IMG/VR virus record: IMGVR_UViG_2667527666_000009
Reading direction: 5' to 3' (one strand)
Length of the DNA: 46,534 bases
From: a virus
Taxonomy: Duplodnaviria; Heunggongvirae; Uroviricota; Caudoviricetes
Below the pieces are notes generated by a model. The model saw nothing but the letters and a program-made list of their open reading frames with translations. It had not been told where the DNA came from and ran no database searches. Made by a program: the position numbers and the translations under genes. Below, piece after piece: positions 2,070-11,345 of the stretch. The number at the start of each line of letters is the position of its first letter. Positions within the stretch are counted from its first letter, which is position 1.

Positions 2070-2303
2070 ATGAAATCAAAAGACACCCTAAAGTGGTTCC
2101 CTGCGCAGCTTCCTGAAGTAAGAATTATCCTAGGGGATGCTGTAGTGGAAGTAGCAAAACAGGGAAGACCTATCAATACCAGAACATTGCTTGATTACAT
2201 TGAAGGAAACATAAAGAAAAAATCATGGCTGGATAACAAAGAATTATTACAAACAGCGATATCAGTTCTTAAAGACAACCAAAATTTAAATGGTAAAATG
2301 TAA
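2070..2303 (+). CDS. ydfK: small cold-shock-associated prophage protein YdfK/YnaE family
   Basis: ORF 2037..2303; internal ATG at 2070 preceded by AAGGAA; product MKSKDTLKWFPAQLPEV... matches recalled YdfK. Confidence 0.7.
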   Translation: MKSKDTLKWFPAQLPEVRIILGDAVVEVAKQGRPINTRTLLDYIEGNIKKKSWLDNKELLQTAISVLKDNQNLNGKM

Positions 2304-2618
2304 TATAATTAACTTACTTTTTTATCATTTTCCACTTTAACAACATTTTGCTCCACTTTTCCACGACCAAACAACTTGAAATCTGGTTAAAATAACACGC
2401 AACACTATTCTTCTTCCTTGAGTCCGCCTGGAACTCGAAAAACAAACCGAATTAAAGCCATTTTTCACAAAATCGATTTTGGGTCTCACCAAAATTACGG
2501 GGTTGCATACGCATTCGTTTATTTTCGAACGTGTACATACAAATATGCACAAAAATAATCAAAATTATTTTCTGAGATGCATTATGATATGAACACCAAT
2601 TTCGTATAGAGTCTCACT

Positions 2619-3209
2619 ATGTCTCGAATTTTTGCTTACTGTCGGATATCAACGCTGGATCAGACCACCGAAAATCAACGCCGGGAAATCGAAAGTGCAG
2701 GTTTTAAAATCAAACCTCAGCAAATAATCGAAGAACACATTAGCGGCTCAGCAGCAACCAGTGAGCGTCCTGGTTTTAACCGGTTGCTTGCTCGCCTGAA
2801 ATGTGGTGATCAATTGATTGTGACAAAATTGGATCGCCTTGGTTGTAATGCAATGGATATCAGGAAAACAGTGGAACAACTGACCGAAACAGGTATCAGA
2901 GTGCATTGCTTAGCATTGGGGGGCATTGACCTGACCAGTCCAACAGGAAAAATGATGATGCAAGTAATTTCAGCAGTCGCTGAATTTGAACGAGACCTTT
3001 TACTTGAACGCACTCATTCCGGGATAGTAAGAGCCCGGGGCGCAGGGAAACGTTTTGGTCGACCACCTGTGTTAAATGAAGAACAGAAACAGGTGGTATT
3101 CGAACGGATTAAGTCAGGTGTAAGTATAAGTGCCATTGCCCGGGAATTCAAAACCTCGCGGCAAACCATTTTAAGAGCCAAAGCAAAACTTCAGACACCT
3201 GACATATAA
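2619..3209 (+). CDS. pinQ: serine-recombinase DNA invertase (Pin/Gin/Hin/Cin family)
   Basis: 196 aa; N-terminal catalytic motif YCRISTLDQ (resolvase/invertase active-site Ser) and C-terminal HTH. Confidence 0.9.
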
Positions 3210-3436
3210 AAAATAATCTCGGTGTGAGATGCTTTACGTCTTCCAAGCCCCCTTCCTTGCCGTAAATGGAAAGATACATCTAATTATAGAATTTATATGT
3301 TTTACCCTACGGCAGTGCTGGCCATTCAATATCCTGTGCAGTTGACGTATCAACACGGTTCAGCAACACCCGATACTTTTTCCTGGCTTCCAGCAACGGG
3401 GTTTCTTCCTCCGTTGCATATACAGCTCACCTTTTT

Positions 3437-3730
3437 TCACCCACGATTAACCAACAGCCAGATCAGCAGACACGCCACCACCGGCACAGCAAAATCCATC
3501 AGGCTTGCCACATCCCAAACACGCGGATCAAAACCGCCCCACCACGGCATGTTAATCCGCTTGCCATGCCCGAACATTTCAATCCAGCGATATTCTGCCT
3601 GGGTGTGTTCACGCGCAATGAAGAACGTACAACCAGCTATCGCCCCATAAGCCCAGTTTCCGGTAAAAAGACCAACCAGTGTCTGCGCAGCCACAGCACA
3701 AAGCGCATGAAGAAAAGGTGTTATATCCAT
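3437..3730 (-). CDS. hypothetical small inner-membrane protein, last gene of the tail-fibre operon
   Basis: 97 aa with two or three hydrophobic helices; starts 11 nt after the upstream gene; no family recognised. Confidence 0.45.
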   Translation of the reverse strand: MDITPFLHALCAVAAQTLVGLFTGNWAYGAIAGCTFFIAREHTQAEYRWIEMFGHGKRINMPWWGGFDPRVWDVASLMDFAVPVVACLLIWLLVNRG

Positions 3731-3740
3731 TACTCCTCCT

Positions 3741-4445
3741 TTATCTAATATCGCTTCGGGAAGTTAATAACAACTTTAATTCTGACTCAAGTTCATCAAC
3801 TCTTTCAGTCAGTTTCTGGATATGGTGAATCAGTGGAACAACCAGACGTTCGTACATTACACCTTCGGCAACAAGGCCATTGCTGGAAATAGCTTCAGGA
3901 GCATCATCTTCGTTAGCTGGTCGCCAGTGTACAAACTGAGGAGCAATTTCTCCTACTTCCTCGGCAATCAATCCGTAGAATCCCCAGTCACGCCTGTCAT
4001 TTTCGCATTGCGACCTGTACCACACAGGGCGCATCCTGAAAATGAGATCGGCGTGCTCTGAATCTATTGTCTCTACTGAATGTTTATAGCGGATAGACGA
4101 TGTTGACCGCAGCACAGACGAAATTGCACGGTCAGGATTAAGATAAAGGTTTGCCGCCGCTGTAGTCGTGGCCAAATTCCATAAATAAAACGCTTCACGA
4201 CCTGTCAGTGGATAAAAATCTCCGCCATAACGACCACTTTCCAGATCGTTCACTTCCACTTTGTTTTTCAGCTTATTATCAACTTCAGTTTTTGTGTATC
4301 TGGAGCTGATATCCTGCTTTGCACTGGTCATCTCAGTCTGAAGCGTTGATACTTTTCTGCTAATTGATGAAATATCTTCCTTAGCTTTACTGACATCCCC
4401 CTTTAGCTTGGTGATATCTCCTGGAATTACTGTCGATGTAGCCAT
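3741..4445 (-). CDS. tail-fibre-like protein with coiled-coil N-terminus and peptidase-S74-type intramolecular chaperone domain
   Basis: 234 aa; N-terminal heptad-rich region (KLKGDVSKAKEDISSISRKVSTLQTEM) then a C-terminal segment resembling the autoproteolytic chaperone domain of tail spikes/fibres (SSIRYK..., GFYGLIAEEV..., terminal coiled coil). Confidence 0.6.
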   Translation of the reverse strand: MATSTVIPGDITKLKGDVSKAKEDISSISRKVSTLQTEMTSAKQDISSRYTKTEVDNKLKNKVEVNDLESGRYGGDFYPLTGREAFYLWNLATTTAAANLYLNPDRAISSVLRSTSSIRYKHSVETIDSEHADLIFRMRPVWYRSQCENDRRDWGFYGLIAEEVGEIAPQFVHWRPANEDDAPEAISSNGLVAEGVMYERLVVPLIHHIQKLTERVDELESELKLLLTSRSDIR

Positions 4446-4454
4446 TTTCCTGCC

Positions 4455-4736
4455 TCACATCCAGCCACGAAGTTGATGCTCAACAACAACCGCGTATTTA
4501 TCGAATATTGACGATTTTTTTGCATCATTAATGATGCGCACGTTTACAAAATATCCGTCTTCCTTAACACATACCGGCTCGCCATCTTCAGTAAGTTCTC
4601 CGGTTTCTTTGTACACGTTACCTATCACGTCAATAAGAATATCATCCTGCATCGACTCGTCATCATAATAGCCAGCACTCTTCATAAAGGCCGAAAAGTC
4701 GGCCTTGTCTGTGAATTTGATAATTAAATCTCGCAT
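4455..4736 (-). CDS. hypothetical protein translationally coupled to the side tail fibre gene (possible fibre assembly factor)
   Basis: 93-aa ORF; its ATG overlaps the stf stop codon (TAATG on the minus strand at 4734..4738). Confidence 0.45.
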   Translation of the reverse strand: MRDLIIKFTDKADFSAFMKSAGYYDDESMQDDILIDVIGNVYKETGELTEDGEPVCVKEDGYFVNVRIINDAKKSSIFDKYAVVVEHQLRGWM

Positions 4737-7120
4737 TATATTATCTCTCCCATTTGCGCATCGGTTAATTCTTTATGCCATATTCTAAAATTCCTGATAT
4801 AACCAAATAAATGACGTAAGCCGGCTGTAGTCTGGCCTCCAATCCTTATACCTGTAGCACCACTAACACTCTTCCACGTTGTTGATGCTGGTGTTGATAA
4901 AACCCCATTGCAGCCAGCCTGAAACTTGCCATCGCTTTTTATTCTATATACAGCGATAATCTTTCTTGGGTAATTTCCAGGTGGAAATGATATTGGATTA
5001 CCAAATTGAACATATGGAGTTCCTACACTACCTGCTGTATTTCTGAATGCAAAAACAAAAGCGTCGTCTTTTGTTTTAAATCCTGTTATATCATAAATTC
5101 TAGGCGCGGAATTTGGTGCTATAGACCAATTTTTATTCACTTCAACCATGCAGGTTAAAGGTTTGCTGGCCATGTTATTTTTACAAGGCAATGTAACAAT
5201 ATCGCTTGCTCGCGTTGATGCAACTGTATCGGAAATGATAAAAGATGATGCGCATGAGCCGCCTTCAAATTGTGGTGTCGTAACATCCAAATATTCCCCG
5301 CCCAAATAAGTTCCAGGTGAAACAGGTGGAGCAATTTGGATCTGAGAGCCAACCATATTATCAATAGCTTCAGATTGATATGTAACCTCGAAATAAATCC
5401 ATCCATTAGATTCTTTCTCCGCTCGGGCGGTTATTCTTGCAGCCCCTCCTCCCGTTTTCCTAATGGACATATCTGTTATATTAAGATATGCATCTGCCAG
5501 ATAAAAATATGCGGACCCGTCATATCTTTCAAATCTTATACGACATTGTATATTAGCACTATCGCTTTTTACACGACATGATGTTGTAACATACTTTTCA
5601 GTTCCAGTAACATCGACACCTCTTCCTCCTGAAACCGCAGCGATATTCATTGTCGTATTTGTCCCAATTTTTTCGTCCTTTATTTGAAACCGCCCATAAG
5701 TAAAGCCAAACTCATCAACACCACTTTCTGTTATAGTTACACTTGTTGTAGCTCCCCACTTAGATGGCGTAAGTGAATTAAGATGATAGTTGGTTCTTTG
5801 TCCTTCAATCAGCAAACCTTCTCGTTCAAATCGCGGTTCGTCAACTTCAGCAACGGTTAATACTCCTGATTTATTAATGTATGTTGCACCTGATGCGCGT
5901 TTGAAGCTAACAACCTTATCGGATGGCATTTTAATAACATCATCACCTACAGTTATTTGCTTATAACCAGGCGAAAAGCCAGCAAGCATATCCAGTGAAT
6001 CGTTAAACGGTATCCACACATCGGGAAGCGGCTGCAAAACTTGTTTATACGGCTCCGCAGCCTGGCTTGCATACTCTCTGGCTGCGTCTTCACTTGCTTT
6101 TGCAGCCGTCTGGCTTGCAGCGGATGCTTTCGCCGAGTTAGCCGCCGCAGTCTCGCTCGCCTTTGCGTTGGTTTCACTGGTTTTTGCAGCTTTTTGACTG
6201 TTGGCTGATGCAGTGGCAGAAGAAGCCGCCGCACTTGCAGAACCAGCTGCGGCACTCTCGCTTTGGGCCGCTGCATCCTGACTGTTTTTCGCCGCAGTTT
6301 CGCTGGCTTTGGCATTCGTTTCGCTGGTCTTCGCTGCCGTCTGGCTGGACTTTGCGTTAGTTTCACTCGTCTTCGCTGCTTTCTGACTGTTAGCCGCAGC
6401 AGTTGCTGATCCAGCTGCTGAAGTCGCAGAACCGGCTGCCGCGCTCTCGCTTTGGGCTGCTGCAACCTGGCTGTTTTTTGCCGCAGTTTCACTGGCTTTG
6501 GCATTCGTTTCGCTGGTCTTCGCTGCCGTCTGGCTGGACTTTGCGTTGGTTTCGCTCGTCTTTGCGGCTGTCTCGCTGTTTTTCGCGTTGGTTTCTGATT
6601 TTTTGGCTGCTGTCGCGGAGTTTGCCGATGCAGTCTGTGAGGTCGCTGCCGCCTGTGCGCTGTTAGCTGCATTCGTTTCTGAGGTTTTCGCCGCGTTCTT
6701 CGATGATGCCGCTGCAGTTTCGGATTTCTTTGCCGCCGCTGCGCTCTGAGAGGCGGCTTCGGCGTTGCGTGCCGCTTCTTCCACCATTTCCTCAAAACGG
6801 CGCAATGCCTCCGGCATGACATCATCTTCCGTCATGGCACCGAGAAAATCATTCAGCGTACCTGGTCTGGAACCTTCATAGACGGTAATGGTCCCGGCAT
6901 GTGAAGGCGGAAAACCTTCAACCAGCAGGGTGACGCTGTACTGGCCATACTCAACATCCATGCTGTAACGTCCGGCTTCATCCGGATTTTCAGAAGCCAC
7001 CGTGTTCACCAGTACCGTGGTGCTGTTACGCTTTGCCTTCAGTTGAATAGTGCAGTTCTGTATTGGTTTTCCCGCACCATCTTTCAGCACACCTGAGATT
7101 TTTACTGCTGCCATATCCAC
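4736..7120 (-). CDS. stf: side tail fibre protein (lambda Stf-like N-terminus, Ala/Ser/Thr-rich repeat shaft, lectin-like C-terminal domain)
   Basis: 794 aa; N-terminus AVKISGVLKDG...GRYSMDVEYGQYSV...HAGTITVYE matches lambda Stf; central low-complexity repeats; C-terminus has a laminin-G/concanavalin-like motif (FRIWHKELTDAQM). Confidence 0.85.
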   Translation of the reverse strand: MDMAAVKISGVLKDGAGKPIQNCTIQLKAKRNSTTVLVNTVASENPDEAGRYSMDVEYGQYSVTLLVEGFPPSHAGTITVYEGSRPGTLNDFLGAMTEDDVMPEALRRFEEMVEEAARNAEAASQSAAAAKKSETAAASSKNAAKTSETNAANSAQAAATSQTASANSATAAKKSETNAKNSETAAKTSETNAKSSQTAAKTSETNAKASETAAKNSQVAAAQSESAAAGSATSAAGSATAAANSQKAAKTSETNAKSSQTAAKTSETNAKASETAAKNSQDAAAQSESAAAGSASAAASSATASANSQKAAKTSETNAKASETAAANSAKASAASQTAAKASEDAAREYASQAAEPYKQVLQPLPDVWIPFNDSLDMLAGFSPGYKQITVGDDVIKMPSDKVVSFKRASGATYINKSGVLTVAEVDEPRFEREGLLIEGQRTNYHLNSLTPSKWGATTSVTITESGVDEFGFTYGRFQIKDEKIGTNTTMNIAAVSGGRGVDVTGTEKYVTTSCRVKSDSANIQCRIRFERYDGSAYFYLADAYLNITDMSIRKTGGGAARITARAEKESNGWIYFEVTYQSEAIDNMVGSQIQIAPPVSPGTYLGGEYLDVTTPQFEGGSCASSFIISDTVASTRASDIVTLPCKNNMASKPLTCMVEVNKNWSIAPNSAPRIYDITGFKTKDDAFVFAFRNTAGSVGTPYVQFGNPISFPPGNYPRKIIAVYRIKSDGKFQAGCNGVLSTPASTTWKSVSGATGIRIGGQTTAGLRHLFGYIRNFRIWHKELTDAQMGEII
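6060..6760. repeat. tandem repeat array inside stf; two near-identical 189-bp units (core 6291..6358 and 6480..6547) flanked by diverged copies
   Basis: direct comparison of the two cores shows a near-exact match at an offset of 189 bp (63 codons), giving repeated KTSETNAKSSQTAAKTSETNAKASETAAKNSQ-type peptide units. Confidence 0.8.
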
Positions 7121-7130
7121 TCCACAAAAA

Positions 7131-7152
7131 AGCCCGCCTGAACCGGCGGGCT
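7131..7152 (-). terminator. rho-independent terminator downstream of lom
   Basis: GC-rich hairpin (AGCCCGCC/GGCGGGCT) followed on the minus strand by a T-run (plus-strand A-run 7125..7130). Confidence 0.6.
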
Positions 7153-7178
7153 GTCATAACACTGTGTTACCTGGCTAA

Positions 7179-7778
7179 TCAGAATTTATAACCGACACCC
7201 ACGATGAAACCGTCAGTGCGCCAGTCACCACTGCCGGAGCCTTCATAAGCAATATCAATGGCCACGGATTCGGTCGGGTTAAACTGCACGCCAGCTCCCC
7301 ACGCCAGAGACGTGTTGCTGTGGCGATCATCATCACTTCCGGTCAGCACATCGTGCGTTTTCCCCTTGTTGTCAGTTACGCGGAGATAATCCCCGGAGAA
7401 CGTCGAAACACGGCTGTAAGCCATACCTGCCATCGCATAAGCACTGAACCATTCATTCACGCGTACAGATGGCCCCGCCATCATGCTGAACCAGCGGTTA
7501 CGCACTGAATCTTCATGCCAGCGGGTATCGCTGTAATGCGTTTTTTGCTCATCTTTGGCATTGGCATAACTGAATGACGTCACCAGCCCCAGCGTGTCCG
7601 TAAATTCATAACGGTATTTCACGTTAATCCCGTTCAGATTATCGCTGCCGGGAACGTTCGTCGAGGCATGAAGATACCCCGCGCTCAGCGTGGACTGATG
7701 TTCAGATGCCCATGCAGGCGCACCGGATACGGCCAGACAAATGGCTGCGGACAAAATGGCGGCATAAAGTTTACGCAT
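7179..7778 (-). CDS. lom: Lom outer-membrane protein (Ail/Lom/PagC beta-barrel family)
   Basis: 199 aa with signal peptide, alternating beta-strand pattern and terminal aromatic residue (GVGYKF); position immediately downstream of J as in lambda. Confidence 0.85.
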   Translation of the reverse strand: MRKLYAAILSAAICLAVSGAPAWASEHQSTLSAGYLHASTNVPGSDNLNGINVKYRYEFTDTLGLVTSFSYANAKDEQKTHYSDTRWHEDSVRNRWFSMMAGPSVRVNEWFSAYAMAGMAYSRVSTFSGDYLRVTDNKGKTHDVLTGSDDDRHSNTSLAWGAGVQFNPTESVAIDIAYEGSGSGDWRTDGFIVGVGYKF

Positions 7779-7808
7779 AATTACCTCTCGCTTTTCTGCA
7801 ATAAAAAA

Positions 7809-7826
7809 GGCACCATTTCTGGTGCC
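7809..7826 (-). terminator. hairpin plus T-run between J and lom
   Basis: GGCACCA-TTTC-TGGTGCC hairpin followed on the minus strand by T6 (plus-strand A-run 7803..7808). Confidence 0.5.
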
Positions 7827-7847
7827 CTTATATGGGTTATAACAATT

Positions 7848-10800
7848 TCAACGAATACTGATGCCGGAAGCGGCTTTTTTGGTCACAATCACCGTACAGT
7901 CGGTGATATTACCTGCCCGCTGATTGCCTTTATGGAAAACCTTAAACTCCAGAGTGACGCTTCCCCTGCCACTCGGCATATCAATAACCGCACTGTAGCT
8001 ACCGGGAATGGCCCCTTTAGTTTCTCTGGATGCGATTAATACACCGTTTTTGCGAACTTCAAAACCATAACCCGTGTATCTTGTACCTCCCGGGTTATTA
8101 CCACTTCCCGGATCGCTATACGCTATTCCGTTAAAGATAATGGGCGGAATAATGATTTGACGGTCAAAGTTATGATCATCGCTGATGGTGACTGTAACCG
8201 TCCCGTTTGGTGTTTCCGTGTTACCCCACGTACCAGCCTGTTTCGGAAATGATTTGGATACAGCTTTAACGAAGTCACCTCTGACCTGAGTCGCCTCCAG
8301 CATGCCCTTAATCGTACAGTTTTCATTTACCGTGACATTGTTGAGCGTCCCGGCGTTCGCATTCACACTGCCACTGATATCCGCATTTTTAGCGGTCAGC
8401 TTTCCGTCCGGTGTCAGGGAAAATGCCGGTGGATTTCCACCACTGGTAATGGTCGGGGCCGTCAGGCGTTTCAGGAACACGTCGTTCATGAATATCTGAT
8501 CGCCCTGACCAACAAACATCGGTTTTGTGTTGCCATTCGCAGGATTAACCATCGCAATCCTGTCCGCCGCCAGCAGCACCTGACTCTGCATGCCGTCAGG
8601 GGTGTTCTCAATACCGGCACCAATACCCGCGATATAAAGGCGTCCGTCCTGCATCTGCTGCAGCTTCACAGCCCACATGCTGTTCAGGTTATTATTTGTA
8701 TCAACCTGAACCTTCTGTATCTGCTGAATTGCCGCACTCTGGTCTTCCAGTTTCTTATTGACGGTCTGCGTGATTTCATTGCTGACATGCGTAATGGACG
8801 TCCTGATTTCAGCCAGGTCAGGCGCAAGCTGACCGTTATCAATCTGCGTCCACAGCTCCTGAGCCAGATGGGTTTTCCCTATCTCGCCTTTGAAAAAATC
8901 CAGATAACCGGATGCATCATCACTCGGCTGACCAACAGCCTCCACGAATGCCGATTTGCCGACGGTGTTCACACTGCGAACGTAAAAATAATAATCATGG
9001 CCCGGTTTGATATTGATACTGGCAGCTATCCAGTACAGCGCCGTACCAAGATAGCGGGCTGTGGTTTCAACCTGCCTGATATCCGCAATCCGCTTTTCCG
9101 AGAACCAGAACTCAAACTGTACCGTCGGATCATAAACGGCAAGATGCGGCGTTGCGGTTATCTGAAAATAGCCCGGCGTCAGCTCAATCCGCGACGGTGC
9201 TGCCGGTGCGGCAATCCGGAACGATACCGATGCCGGATCGCCCTGCTGCCCCCAGGCATTTGCCGCCCGGACTGTCAGCCTGTAGTTTCCCAGCGCCAGT
9301 TGCGTGAAGCGGTATGTGGTTTCCGTCGTCCGGGCCGTGCTGACCAGCCGCTCACTGCCGTCGTCTGCTGCCACAGTCAGGCGAAGCATAAAGCTCACAC
9401 CCTTCACCACCTTCGGCGTGTCCCATCGCGCCAGCACCTGATATTCCCCGCTGTCTGCAGTGACTTCGGCGGTCAGATGCTGCACTGCTGGCGGCGTGAC
9501 ACCATTCACCGTGCCGCTCTGGTCACCGTCAAAGTGCGCCCCGTTATCCACGATGGCCTCTTTCTCCGGCACATGCTGCACGGCAGTGATGGCATACGTG
9601 CCGTCGTCGTTCTCACGGATACTCACGCAGCGGAACAGGCGCTGGCGCAGCGTCGGCAGCTTAAGCCCCCACACGCTGTATTCAGCAACACCGTCAGGAA
9701 CCCGGCTCACTTTTACCTTCACGCCGTCGGTGACGGACTGAACCTCCACGCTGACCGGACTCCCCTGCCCGTCAACCAGGCTTATCAGCGTGGTGCCGGA
9801 GGCTGGCAGCGTGATTTCACGGTCGAGCGTCAGTGTCCGCGTCTGGCTGTTCACCGCCAGCACGCGCCCACCGGTGCTGATGCCCGCATAGTCATCATCG
9901 CAGATTTCAATGACATCGCCCGGTACATGGCGAAGCCCTTCGGCACCCACGCTGAAGTCCACGGTCTGCGTTTCCAGCAGTTCTGTTTTAATCAGCCACA
10001 GCCCGGCTCGGTGCGCCTGCCCCCGACTGGTACAGCCAAACGCATCCATCTTCGTGACGTTACGACCGTAACGGGCAATGGCCTGCGTGTCCTCCACAAG
10101 CTCTGTCGCCGTCTCCCAGCCGTTATCCGGGTCAATCCAGTTCACCTCAACGGCATTATGGCGGTCCTTGAGGGCGCTGAAGCTGTAGCGGAACGGCGCG
10201 CCATCATCCGGCATCACCACATTACTGCGGTTATAGGTCCACACCTTATCCGACGGCCGGTCCTGCACGAACGTCAGCGTCTGCCCGTTCCATACCGGCA
10301 TACAGCGCATCGCCGAGCAGAAATCACTGAGCACATCCCACGCCTTGCGCTGTGTGGTCAGGTACGCATTACAGGTGATGCGCGGCTCCGTGCCGCCAAA
10401 GCCGTCCGGCACTGACTGGTCGCAGTACTGGCCGATGACATACAGCGCCCATTTGTCCACATCCGCCGCACCAAGACGTTTCCCCATGCCGTAGCGTGGA
10501 TGGGTCAGCATATCCCACAGACACCAGGCCATGTTATTGCTGTATGCTGGCTTAAACGTTCCGTCCCAGATACCGCTGTATTGCCGCGTCTGCGGGTTAT
10601 AGTTCGACGGCACCTGCAGAATGCGCCCGCGAAGATGATAATTACGGCTCACCTGCTGGCTGCCGAACTGCTCCGAGTCCACCTGCACGCCGACCAGTGC
10701 CGTGTTCGGGTAGCACTGTTTCACATCGATGATTTCTGTGTATGACGACCAGAGCGTTTTGTTCTGCAGCTGGTCTGTGGTGCTGTCCGGCGTCATCCTG

Positions 10801-11345
10801 CGCATCCGGATATTAAACGGGCGCGGCGGCAGGTTATCCACCACCACCGAGGCCAGATACTGCGACGTGGTTTTGCCCTTAATGGTGATGTCTTTTTCCG
10901 TCACCCAGCCACCGTTACGCTGTATCTGAACCAGCAGACGGACTTCCGACGGATTCCTGTCACCCTTTGAGGTGGTTTCCACCAGTGCCTGCACACCGAA
11001 GGTAAAGCGCAGACGGTCGATGTTTGCAGACGTGATGGTCCGGGTAATCGGCGTGTCGTACTTCACTTCCGTACCCAGCACCGTCTCGGAGCCGGAGGAT
11101 TCAAACCCCTCCGGCGGTGTCTGCTCCTGCTCACCTGCCCGGAACACCACCGTGACGCCGGAGATATTGGTATTCCCCTCACTGTCCAGCACTGGCGTAC
11201 TGTTCAGCAGCACACTTTTTAATCCGTCCACCGGACCTTCAATCGGCCCTTCACTGATGGCGTCTATCACGCTCAGCATCTGGGATGATTTCAGGTTGTC
11301 CTTCGCTTCGCGCGGGGTATGCCCCTTACTGCTGCCTTTACCCAT
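7848..11345 (-). CDS. J: tail tip host-specificity protein J (central fibre)
   Basis: 1165 aa; N-terminus [20 protein letters not shown]... and overall length match lambda gpJ; position between I and lom. Confidence 0.9.

What the first reader, a model, noticed from the sequence alone, without database searches (positions are those of the whole stretch)
4455..7120. Side tail fibre with 189-bp tandem repeats and a lectin-like C-terminus, coupled to a small downstream gene
The fibre has a lambda-Stf N-terminus, but its shaft contains at least two near-identical 189-bp tandem units (cores 6291..6358 and 6480..6547) and its C-terminus carries a laminin-G/concanavalin-like motif (FRIWHKELTDAQM) rather than a lambda-type tip. 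A 93-aa ORF starts on the stf stop codon (TAATG). Such repeats are natural substrates for length variation, and the tip domain suggests a carbohydrate receptor.
Basis: partly seen in the sequence, partly recalled or inferred. Interest (0 to 1): 0.5.

Follow-up and report, generated by a model that had tools for sequence, protein, structure and literature searches.

The report
Prophage side tail fibre, lectin-like tip
This is the side tail fibre operon of a lambda-like E. coli prophage: a fibre whose helical shaft changes length by whole 63-residue repeats, ending in a predicted sugar-binding tip with a small uncharacterised partner gene; it is common, already annotated and of ordinary biological kind.

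Summary
On the minus strand, stf (4736..7114, 792 aa) contains a 189-bp tandem repeat. TRF reports 2.3 copies. A 93-aa gene starts on the stf stop codon (TAATG).

Each unit is nine heptads within an uninterrupted run of 36 heptads. Relatives carry one unit (phage IdasGreatGrand), two (this window) or three (an E. coli contig whose newest pair is 99% identical). Length variation by unit gain and loss is therefore real.

This C-terminal module plus the ~92-aa gene travels as one cassette on five unrelated fibre N-termini: lambdoid, Drexlerviridae, Queuovirinae, T5-like and rV5-like. The 93-aa protein matches no Pfam family and has no close solved fold. I infer it is a dedicated assembly factor.

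Two further genes belong to the operon: a 234-aa short fibre with an S74 self-cleaving chaperone domain, and a 97-aa hydrophobic protein.

The parts
4736..7114 (-). stf, the side tail fibre gene (792 aa from the ATG at 7114; the ORF listing extends it to the GTG at 7120)
   Evidence: ORF. GGAG lies 5 nt upstream of the ATG. RefSeq annotates the same start in the 99.3%-identical ATCC 8739 locus. Full-length match to phrog_1419 'tail protein'.
6719..7108 (-). N-terminal virion-attachment domain (lambda Stf type)
   Evidence: Pfam PF08400 phage_tail_N, E = 7.3e-67, residues 5-134 of the 794-aa ORF. PDB chain 9e7m_Ta 'Tail fiber protein', E = 6.9e-49.
6056..6769 (-). Shaft: 34 uninterrupted heptads of pattern x-S-x-x-A-A-x (36 counting the two less regular heptads before them). 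Inferred to form a trimeric alpha-helical coiled coil.
   Evidence: Heptad position 2 is Ser in 32 of 34 heptads and position 6 is Ala in 31 of 34. There is no Pro and there are only 3 Gly. The helical trimer is inferred from this periodicity and from the LtfA three-helix coiled coil seen in phage DT57C (PMC10713586). It was not modelled here.
6371..6559 (-). Repeat unit A (63 aa, nine heptads)
   Evidence: It is 97-98% identical to the two A units of locus L007.
6182..6370 (-). Repeat unit B (63 aa, nine heptads)
   Evidence: It is 95% identical to the single unit of phage IdasGreatGrand and to the third unit of L007.
4739..6055 (-). C-terminal 439-aa receptor-binding module. Together with the 93-aa gene it moves as a cassette between phage lineages.
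   Evidence: 56% identical over its full length to the C-terminus of the T5-like VSe12 fibre, and 39% to the C-terminus of a 1479-aa rV5-like fibre. 2540 database proteins match at E <= 0.001.
5261..5773 (-). First beta-sandwich (module residues about 95-265)
   Evidence: pLDDT mostly 77-92 in the AF2 model. Lies within the NCBIfam NF048003 GTA_spike_fiber match: 51.7 bits against a cut-off of 36, residues 437-638 of the 794-aa ORF.
4751..5197 (-). Second beta-sandwich (module residues about 287-435), ending in the laminin-G-like terminal strand and helix GYIRNFRIWHKELTDAQM
4856..5095 (-). Hypervariable stretch of the second sandwich (module residues 321-400); candidate specificity determinant
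   Evidence: Only 20-29% identical to the six other alleles compared, while module residues 1-100 and 401-439 stay 67-85% identical in the five siphovirus and prophage alleles (39% and 51% in the rV5-like one).
4455..4736 (-). 93-aa gene, translationally coupled to stf (TAATG); inferred fibre-specific assembly factor or accessory subunit
3741..4445 (-). 234-aa short fibre protein: conserved N-terminal ~22 aa, a coiled-coil segment, and a C-terminal S74 intramolecular-chaperone (self-cleaving) domain
   Evidence: Pfam PF13884 Peptidase_S74, 27.5 bits against a cut-off of 22. Aligns with the C-terminus of phrog_3299. Conserved as a separate gene in lytic Drexlerviridae. The N-terminal motif MATxTVIPxDITxLK is shared with otherwise different 346-348-aa proteins. 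A 9-nt spacer with GAGG precedes the ATG.
3437..3730 (-). 97-aa hydrophobic protein, the last gene of the four-gene block; function unknown
   Evidence: phrog_1443, function unknown. Strong Shine-Dalgarno AGGAGG in a 10-nt spacer. Present in the same position in IdasGreatGrand, ATCC 8739 and L007. Kyte-Doolittle hydrophobic peaks near residues 12 and 80-88.
7131..7152 (-). Intrinsic-terminator-like hairpin between lom and stf
   Evidence: Stem of 8 pairs (7 G-C) followed by a T run. The sequence is visible.

Best explanation
This is the side (lateral) tail fibre operon of a lambdoid prophage. It sits after J and lom, at the Qin (ydfJ-ydfK-pinQ) locus of an E. coli related to strains ATCC 8739, B and C.

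Stf anchors to the tail through a lambda-type N-terminal domain. A shaft of 36 uninterrupted Ser/Ala-core heptads projects from it, most likely as a trimeric alpha-helical coiled coil. The fibre ends in two concanavalin-A/laminin-G-type beta-sandwiches that most likely bind a surface polysaccharide such as O-antigen or capsule.

The 189-bp repeat is a nine-heptad block. Unequal homologous recombination between blocks adds or removes exactly 63 residues without disturbing the heptad register. If the shaft is helical, each block is worth roughly 9 nm, so related phages carry fibres of different reach.

The tip module and the overlapping 93-aa gene form one cassette that recombines onto unrelated fibre shafts. 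This tip has no self-cleaving chaperone domain of its own. The 93-aa protein is therefore most likely its dedicated folding or trimerisation factor, or a small subunit that stays bound.

The next gene encodes a short fibre that carries its own S74 intramolecular chaperone and a conserved N-terminal peptide. It probably docks onto the Stf tip region to give a two-part or branched fibre with a second binding specificity.

Shown here: the gene anatomy, the repeat, copy-number variation among relatives, the predicted fold class, and cassette co-inheritance. Inferred: the helical trimer, sugar binding, the chaperone role, and docking of the third protein.
For: Anatomy and context:
- J, lom, stf, the 93-aa, 234-aa and 97-aa genes, then a pin-type invertase.
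- 99.3% identical to the ATCC 8739 Qin-locus prophage.

Repeat:
-, including the 0 of 5000 shuffle control.
- Copy-number series B, A-B, A-A-B. The two A units in L007 are 99% identical, so that duplication is recent.
- All shaft-length variants differ by multiples of 7 residues.
- 19 synonymous against 5 non-synonymous differing codons between units A and B indicate selection on the protein sequence.

Tip:
- AF2 model.
- Foldseek: neurexin, laminin, galectin and CBM40 domains, and an adenovirus galectin-domain fibre.
- NF048003 match above its cut-off. The RcGTA head spike fibre that names this model binds capsular polysaccharide experimentally (PMC10218006).
- Lateral fibres of T5-like phages bind O-antigen, and the BASEL authors propose the same for small siphoviruses (PMC8594841, PMC4728585).
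- The hypervariable stretch lies in the distal sandwich on a conserved frame.

Cassette:
- The same tip plus a ~92-aa gene with a stop/start overlap occurs in tunus, JenP2, VSe12, ime, IdasGreatGrand and L007.
- 186 phage records carry the small gene.
- The 93-aa protein stays 85-87% identical where the variable parts of the tip are only 20-53% identical. It therefore tracks the conserved frame, not the variable surface.

Third gene:
- S74 domain.
- Conserved N-terminal peptide on divergent bodies.
- The closest fold match to the tip, Pa193 gp46, is itself a fibre-docking protein (PMC11456595).
Against: - The tip model is a monomer with mean pLDDT 68.7. The first ~90 residues and the inter-domain linker are unmodelled, and the alignment behind it has only 42 sequences, all at least 51% identical.
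- No Pfam LamG or lectin model matched at E <= 0.1.
- No ligand, trimer or complex was modelled or measured.
- The 93-aa protein shows no sequence or fold similarity to any known tail-fibre chaperone, so its role rests on gene position and co-inheritance alone.
- The third gene is replaced by unrelated genes in the T5-like and rV5-like examples, so it is not an obligate partner of the cassette.
- I found no paper that tests this fibre type.
Confidence: 0.65

Rival explanations
1. The two beta-sandwiches are not the receptor binder. They are a docking platform for the third-gene short fibre, and that fibre, with its S74-processed tip, is the real adhesin. The 93-aa protein would be the connector between the two.
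For: - The third-gene products share a conserved N-terminal ~22-aa peptide while their bodies differ (234 against 346 aa). The same pattern identified LtfB as the branch attached to LtfA in DT57C (PMC4728585).
- The BASEL authors describe distal receptor-binding proteins that connect to a long proximal fibre (PMC11990801).
Against: - The tip carries a hypervariable stretch (20-29% identity) even between phages whose third gene is 94-96% identical and whose 93-aa gene is 87% identical. A pure docking platform should co-vary with its partner or stay conserved.
- T5-like VSe12 and rV5-like ime keep the tip and the small gene but have unrelated downstream genes.
- The GTA_spike_fiber homology points to direct polysaccharide binding (PMC10218006).
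- The two roles are not exclusive.
Confidence: 0.2
2. The 93-aa protein is not an assembly factor. It is a virion-borne adhesin or cap on the fibre tip, analogous to gp38 of T2 and S16. Alternatively, it is a non-structural passenger gene that merely hitch-hikes with the cassette.
For: - It has a compact, confidently predicted alpha/beta fold (pLDDT 83), unrelated to known Tfa chaperones.
- It is always a stand-alone protein of 88-124 aa among full-length homologues and is never fused to a fibre.
Against: - An adhesin would be expected to vary with host, yet the protein is 85-87% conserved across tip alleles that differ strongly.
- A passenger gene would not keep a one-base or four-base stop/start overlap with the fibre gene in five phage lineages, including strictly lytic ones.
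Confidence: 0.15
3. The block is a decaying remnant of a defective prophage. On this view the repeat has no function; it is slippage-prone low-complexity DNA.
For: - The locus is the Qin cryptic-prophage site.
- In ATCC 8739 the neighbouring J gene is cut by IS3.
- In BL21-type strains only query positions 1-2211 are matched, so the 5' end of stf is missing there.
- A truncated tfa lies next to the invertase.
Against: - All four genes here are intact, and J is full length (1165 aa).
- The same four genes occur in the isolated phage IdasGreatGrand, and the first three in lytic phages.
- Every length variant preserves both the reading frame and the heptad register.
- Synonymous differences outnumber non-synonymous ones 19 to 5 between the units.
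Confidence: 0.05

Closest known systems
Bacteriophage lambda side tail fibre Stf with its chaperone Tfa (also E. coli K-12 StfR/TfaR, StfQ/TfaQ)
   Same: Same N-terminal attachment domain (PF08400). Same genomic position after J and lom. Same overall logic: anchor, long repetitive shaft, C-terminal binding module, and a small gene immediately downstream.
   Different: The tip is a tandem ConA/LamG-type beta-sandwich rather than a gp37-like tip. The downstream gene is not a Tfa: no PF02413 or other Pfam match, and no fold match. Two further genes follow (an S74 short fibre and a 97-aa hydrophobic protein). Only a truncated tfa remnant remains, next to the invertase.
Branched L-shaped tail fibres LtfA/LtfB of T5-like phages DT57C and DT571/2 (PMC4728585, PMC10713586)
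   Same: Two consecutive fibre genes. The first protein has an N-terminal anchor and, in LtfA, a three-helix coiled coil. The second protein carries a short conserved N-terminal peptide and an S74 self-cleaving chaperone domain. LtfA also contains tandem repeats (19 aa). The receptors are O-antigens.
   Different: In DT57C both proteins end in S74 domains and no small gene is described between them in the passages I read. Here the first protein ends in lectin-like sandwiches and depends, by inference, on a separate 93-aa protein. Attachment of the second protein has not been shown here.
RcGTA head spike fibre (rcc01080), source of NCBIfam NF048003 (PMC10218006)
   Same: Sequence match above the curated cut-off over the first beta-sandwich. 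The RcGTA protein is also modelled as a quasi-two-domain, beta-rich, lectin-like protein, and it binds capsular polysaccharide.
   Different: It sits on a capsid spike base of a gene transfer agent rather than at the end of a tail fibre, and it has neither a coiled-coil shaft nor a PF08400 anchor.
Pseudomonas phage Pa193 gp46 baseplate wedge protein (PDB 9b45; PMC11456595)
   Different: 15% sequence identity. It is a baseplate triplex component that holds a fibre, not the distal end of a fibre.

Membership tests
Lambda-type side tail fibre (Stf) | N-terminal PF08400 'prophage tail fibre N-terminal' domain | tested here: met
   E = 7.3e-67, 223.9 bits against a cut-off of 26.6. PDB chain 9e7m_Ta, E = 6.9e-49.
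Lambda-type side tail fibre (Stf) | Encoded after J and lom at the end of a lambdoid tail operon | tested here: met
   J at 7848..11345, lom at 7179..7778 (PF06316, E = 1e-123), then stf.
Lambda-type side tail fibre (Stf) | gp37-like C-terminal tip, with a Tfa-family chaperone gene downstream | tested here: not met
   No such Pfam or NCBIfam match. Fold searches return LamG, CBM and galectin domains, not gp37. The downstream 93-aa protein has no Pfam match in any of 25 family members.
Concanavalin A-like lectin/glucanase fold (LamG/LNS, CBM40, pentraxin, galectin) | Curved two-sheet beta-sandwich fold | tested here: met
Concanavalin A-like lectin/glucanase fold (LamG/LNS, CBM40, pentraxin, galectin) | Sequence membership in a Pfam Laminin_G or lectin family | tested here: not met
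   No such family at E <= 0.1. The similarity of the C-terminal motif to Laminin_G_3 is from my own recollection and was not tested.
Concanavalin A-like lectin/glucanase fold (LamG/LNS, CBM40, pentraxin, galectin) | Carbohydrate binding | not testable with these tools
   Needs glycan or LPS binding assays.
NCBIfam NF048003 GTA_spike_fiber domain | Score above the curated cut-off | tested here: met
   51.7 bits against 36, E = 1.5e-13, profile positions 1-181 of 182.
Tail fibre assembly proteins / chaperones (lambda Tfa, Mu gpU, T4 gp38 and gp57A) | Sequence or fold homology to a known chaperone family | tested here: not met
Tail fibre assembly proteins / chaperones (lambda Tfa, Mu gpU, T4 gp38 and gp57A) | Small gene immediately downstream of the fibre gene and co-inherited with its C-terminus | tested here: met
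   TAATG overlap. The same arrangement occurs in five phage lineages.
Tail fibre assembly proteins / chaperones (lambda Tfa, Mu gpU, T4 gp38 and gp57A) | Required for fibre folding or trimerisation | not testable with these tools
   Needs co-expression or deletion experiments.
Peptidase S74 intramolecular-chaperone fibres (the 234-aa protein) | C-terminal PF13884 domain | tested here: met
   27.5 bits against a cut-off of 22, residues 116-172, profile positions 1-57 of 58.
Branched LtfA/LtfB-type lateral fibres | Second fibre protein with a conserved N-terminal docking peptide on variable bodies | tested here: met
   The first 35 residues are 57-83% identical across the proteins of 234, 245, 346 and 348 aa. 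In the 346- and 348-aa proteins my alignment found no match beyond residue 35.
Branched LtfA/LtfB-type lateral fibres | Physical attachment of the second protein to the first | not testable with these tools
   No multimer modelling was available. Needs cryo-EM or pull-down.
Invertible tail-fibre segments (Mu G, P1 C, e14 P with Gin/Cin/Pin) | Serine invertase next to the fibre genes | tested here: met
   2619..3209 (+): PF00239 E = 2.5e-36 and phrog_125 'DNA invertase'. Annotated pinQ in ATCC 8739.
Invertible tail-fibre segments (Mu G, P1 C, e14 P with Gin/Cin/Pin) | Inverted crossover sites bracketing alternative fibre C-termini | tested here: not met
   No inverted repeat longer than 24 nt or better than 93% complementary in 2300..7200, and none in a suitable position.

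The most novel reading that the evidence does not exclude
The 93-aa protein founds an undescribed family of tail-fibre assembly factors or tip subunits, unrelated in sequence and fold to Tfa, gp38 and gp57A. It is specific to a lectin-like (tandem LamG) receptor-binding module. Tip and partner form a self-contained cassette that has been exchanged among at least five coliphage lineages. If so, the pair would be a ready-made unit for retargeting phage fibres.
Probability: 0.45. Interest if true: 0.4.

Novelty: new member of a known kind. Interest (0 to 1): 0.3.

Why it matters
The locus illustrates three separate ways in which a phage adhesin diversifies:
- shaft length changes in register-preserving 63-residue steps;
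- the variable core of a lectin-like tip is swapped on a conserved frame;
- a second, short fibre is swapped behind a conserved N-terminal peptide.

The conserved joints are the first ~100 and last ~40 residues of the tip module, the 93-aa protein, and the third protein's N-terminal peptide. These are the natural splice points for engineering host range. The 93-aa family has no assigned function despite appearing in 186 phage records and in common laboratory strains (E. coli B, BL21 and C). Beyond that, this is a standard prophage tail-fibre operon that is already annotated in RefSeq.

Tried and rejected
- Pfam and NCBIfam scans for a LamG, lectin or CBM family in the tip. Only NF048003 matched; no Pfam lectin family did.
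- PDB sequence search with the whole fibre. Only the N-terminal domain matched, plus short Ser/Ala-rich stretches of Klebsiella phage depolymerases.
- Exhaustive HMMER search for fusions of the 93-aa domain to fibres. It found 53 clusters, all small stand-alone proteins. The three long hits match only 25-30 residues each, in several short stretches, and look spurious.
- An active Pin-invertible fibre segment. No crossover-site inverted repeats were found.
- A sigma-70 promoter or terminator inside the four-gene block. Promoter-like sites were no more frequent than in shuffles, and the only terminator-like hairpins are the one upstream of stf (7131..7152) and the one between J and lom.
- The long ORFs in other frames across the repeat (for example 5953..6825, 290 aa). 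I rejected them as a by-product of the repetitive GC-rich sequence.
- Literature on this exact fibre type. Two searches gave nothing specific. The rV5 proteome paper was not informative, because rV5 gp41 is an S74-ended allele rather than this cassette.
Full report
**What is at the coordinates**

The finding spans two genes on the minus strand. The fibre ORF is 4736..7120 (794 aa from a GTG) and the small ORF is 4455..4736 (93 aa).

The fibre's real start is most likely the ATG at 7114. A GGAG lies 5 nt upstream, just after a terminator-like hairpin at 7131..7152. RefSeq uses the same start for the 99.3%-identical gene of E. coli ATCC 8739.

The junction reads ATAATATAATGCGAG.

Upstream on the same strand lie J (7848..11345) and lom (7179..7778; PF06316, E = 1e-123). 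Downstream lie a 234-aa gene (3741..4445) and a 97-aa gene (3437..3730). They are separated by 9- and 10-nt spacers carrying Shine-Dalgarno sequences. A pin-type serine invertase lies beyond on the plus strand (2619..3209).

In ATCC 8739 the block sits at the Qin site, next to ydfJ, ydfK and pinQ.

**The repeat**

- Tandem Repeats Finder reports 6143..6580, period 189, 2.3 copies, 83% matches, no indels, score 610.
- In codon register the two full units are A (6371..6559) and B (6182..6370).
- They are 85% identical in DNA and 92% in protein. The differing codons split 19 synonymous to 5 non-synonymous. The longest identical run is 56 nt.

The unit is not an arbitrary block. The shaft is an uninterrupted array of 36 heptads. 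Across its 34 most regular heptads, position 2 is Ser in 32 and position 6 is Ala in 31. There is no proline and there are only three glycines. One unit is exactly nine heptads.

Heptad sequences resemble one another anyway, so I controlled for that. I shuffled the heptad order 5000 times and took the best identity between adjacent 189-nt blocks each time. The mean was 0.52 and the maximum 0.68, against 0.85 observed. The tandem duplication is therefore real and goes beyond the background periodicity.

**Copy number in relatives**

Among the 120 closest proteins, the distance between a motif at the end of the N-domain and a motif at the start of the C-module takes four values: 155, 253, 260 and 323 residues. 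Phage IdasGreatGrand adds a fifth, 197. All five differ by multiples of seven.

Written out in heptads:
- 197 (phage IdasGreatGrand, 731 aa) has one unit;
- 260 (the window and most relatives) has two;
- 323 (P0008 and five others) has three.

At the DNA level the units fall into two types:
- IdasGreatGrand carries B only;
- the window carries A-B;
- the P0008 locus (L007) carries A-A-B, and its two A units are 99% identical.

This is the signature of recent unequal recombination. If the shaft is an alpha-helical coiled coil, each unit adds roughly 9 nm. The helical state is an inference. It rests on the Ser/Ala pattern with 3-4 spacing and on the three-helix LtfA shaft resolved in phage DT57C (PMC10713586). 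I did not model it.

**The ends of the fibre**

The N-terminus is the lambda-type attachment domain. It matches PF08400 at E = 7e-67 and the solved chain 9e7m_Ta at E = 7e-49.

The C-terminal 439 aa have no Pfam match. NCBIfam's 'phage head spike fiber' domain (NF048003) scores 51.7 bits against a cut-off of 36. The protein that names this model, the RcGTA head spike fibre, binds capsular polysaccharide in binding assays and is itself modelled as a two-domain, lectin-like beta protein (PMC10218006).

An AlphaFold2 model was built from a 42-sequence alignment. Mean pLDDT is 68.7. It gives two well-formed beta-sandwiches, at module residues ~95-265 and ~287-435, with blockwise pLDDT of about 70-92. 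The first ~90 residues are unmodelled.

Fold searches agree on the fold class:
- Foldseek against the PDB ranks neurexin LNS2-3, laminin-511 LG domains, the galectin domain of an adenovirus fibre, galectin-9 and NanA CBM40 at the top.
- No gp37-type tip appears in either list.

**A mobile cassette**

The same ~430-aa module, always at the extreme C-terminus of the fibre, is followed by a ~92-aa gene whose start overlaps the fibre's stop. It occurs on quite different fibre bodies:

| Phage or locus | Lineage | Fibre length | Tip identity to window |
|---|---|---|---|
| tunus | Drexlerviridae | 657 aa | 53% |
| JenP2 | Queuovirinae | 688 aa | 45% |
| VSe12 | T5-like | 698 aa | 56% |
| ime | Vequintavirus | 1479 aa | 39% |
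| IdasGreatGrand, L007 | lambdoid phage and prophage | 731, 854 aa | 54-55% |

(identities for VSe12 and ime are BLASTP values, the rest are whole-module values)

tblastn finds the small protein in 186 phage records, 184 of them at full length. In the loci inspected it directly follows the fibre gene.

An exhaustive HMMER search of 1.8 billion representative proteins finds only 53 clusters. Full-length hits are stand-alone proteins of 88-124 aa.

**What varies with what**

Comparing alleles region by region:
- Tip residues 1-100 and 401-439 stay 67-85% identical in the five siphovirus and prophage alleles.
- Tip residues 321-400 drop to 20-29%.

IdasGreatGrand is the telling case. Its 93-aa protein is 87% identical to the window's and its third gene 94-96%. 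Yet its tip is only 55% identical overall and 20% in the hypervariable stretch.

The variable surface therefore evolves independently of both neighbours. That fits a receptor-contact surface. It also suggests that the 93-aa protein works with the conserved frame.

The tip has no self-cleaving chaperone domain, whereas the next protein has one. A dedicated folding or trimerisation factor is thus the most economical role for the 93-aa protein. This is an inference from gene position and co-inheritance.

**The third and fourth genes**

The 234-aa protein has a coiled-coil-like N-terminal half and a Peptidase_S74 intramolecular-chaperone domain (27.5 bits against a cut-off of 22). It aligns with the C-terminal end of long fibre proteins (phrog_3299).

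It is a conserved separate gene in lytic Drexlerviridae, at 56-60% identity. In L007 and JenP2 it is replaced by proteins of 346 and 348 aa. These share only the first ~22 residues (MATxTVIPxDITxLKxDVS) and the S74 end.

A conserved N-terminal peptide on interchangeable bodies is how LtfB was recognised as the branch attached to LtfA in DT57C (PMC4728585). The BASEL authors likewise describe distal binding proteins that connect to a long proximal fibre (PMC11990801). The closest fold match of the tip, Pa193 gp46, is itself a fibre-docking protein (PMC11456595).

I therefore favour a two-part or branched fibre. Docking was not tested, and the T5-like and rV5-like examples have unrelated genes in this position.

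The 97-aa protein is hydrophobic, belongs to phrog_1443 (function unknown) and keeps its position in three other loci. I cannot assign it a role.

**How ordinary is it**

- 4817 of 5426 complete E. coli genomes match part of the query, mostly the N-domain and shaft.
- 76 genomes match at least 80% of it.
- More than 40 genomes are at least 98.6% identical over the full length, including REL606, E. coli B, E. coli C and ATCC 8739.
- BL21-type strains carry a copy matched only over query 1-2211, so it lacks the 5' end of stf.

RefSeq names the fibre 'prophage tail fiber N-terminal domain-containing protein' and calls the small gene 'hypothetical protein'. PHROGs has a full-length family for the fibre (phrog_1419).

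Repeat-bearing fibre shafts are well known, as are modular tips and lateral fibres aimed at O-antigen (PMC8594841, PMC4728585). The tunus record even annotates a repeat region inside its fibre gene.

**Verdict**

The biology is a familiar kind. The only open item of some interest is the uncharacterised 93-aa partner of a widely exchanged lectin-like tip.

Noticed in passing
window 2619..3209 (+) and about 3300..3420 (-): A Pin/Gin-type serine DNA invertase (PF00239 plus HTH_7; pinQ in ATCC 8739) sits next to a short remnant that RefSeq annotates in the matching ATCC 8739 locus as a tail fibre assembly gene missing its N-terminus. No inverted crossover sites bracket the present fibre genes. The invertase looks orphaned by replacement of an older invertible stf/tfa segment. 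The window coordinates of the remnant are my estimate from the offset between the two loci.
   Followed up: partly
window 3437..3730 (-): A 97-aa hydrophobic protein (phrog_1443, function unknown) with a strong Shine-Dalgarno sequence closes the fibre block. It keeps this position in phage IdasGreatGrand, ATCC 8739 and L007. It has no family assignment and no obvious role in a fibre.
   Followed up: partly
window 7131..7152 (-) and 7806..7829 (-): Intrinsic-terminator-like hairpins lie between lom and stf and between J and lom. Expression of the fibre block would therefore need read-through (as with lambda late antitermination) or a promoter of its own. No convincing sigma-70 site was seen.
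   Followed up: partly
L001 9391..11922 (E. coli ATCC 8739); window 7848..11345: In ATCC 8739 the J gene next to this fibre block is truncated by an IS3-family element, whereas J in the window is intact (1165 aa). In BL21-type strains only query positions 1-2211 are matched, so the 5' end of stf is missing. The same block thus exists in intact and decayed states across laboratory strains.
   Followed up: partly
window 5953..6825 (-) and 6403..6749 (+): Long ORFs in alternative frames run through the repeat (290 aa, rich in Arg, Gln and Pro; also 87 and 83 aa). They are most likely by-products of the repetitive GC-rich coding sequence rather than genes.
   Followed up: no
PDB chains 7lzj_A, 7vyv_A and 7vz3_A against stf residues 183-274: Short Ser/Ala/Lys/Glu-rich stretches of chains named 'Depolymerase' match the shaft repeats weakly (E about 1e-3). 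The same heptad-like linker motif may therefore be shared with other phage receptor-binding proteins.
   Followed up: no
L003 2518..2639 (phage tunus): The tunus GenBank record annotates a repeat_region inside its homologous fibre gene. Tandem repeats in the shaft are therefore also present, and already noted, in a lytic relative.
   Followed up: no
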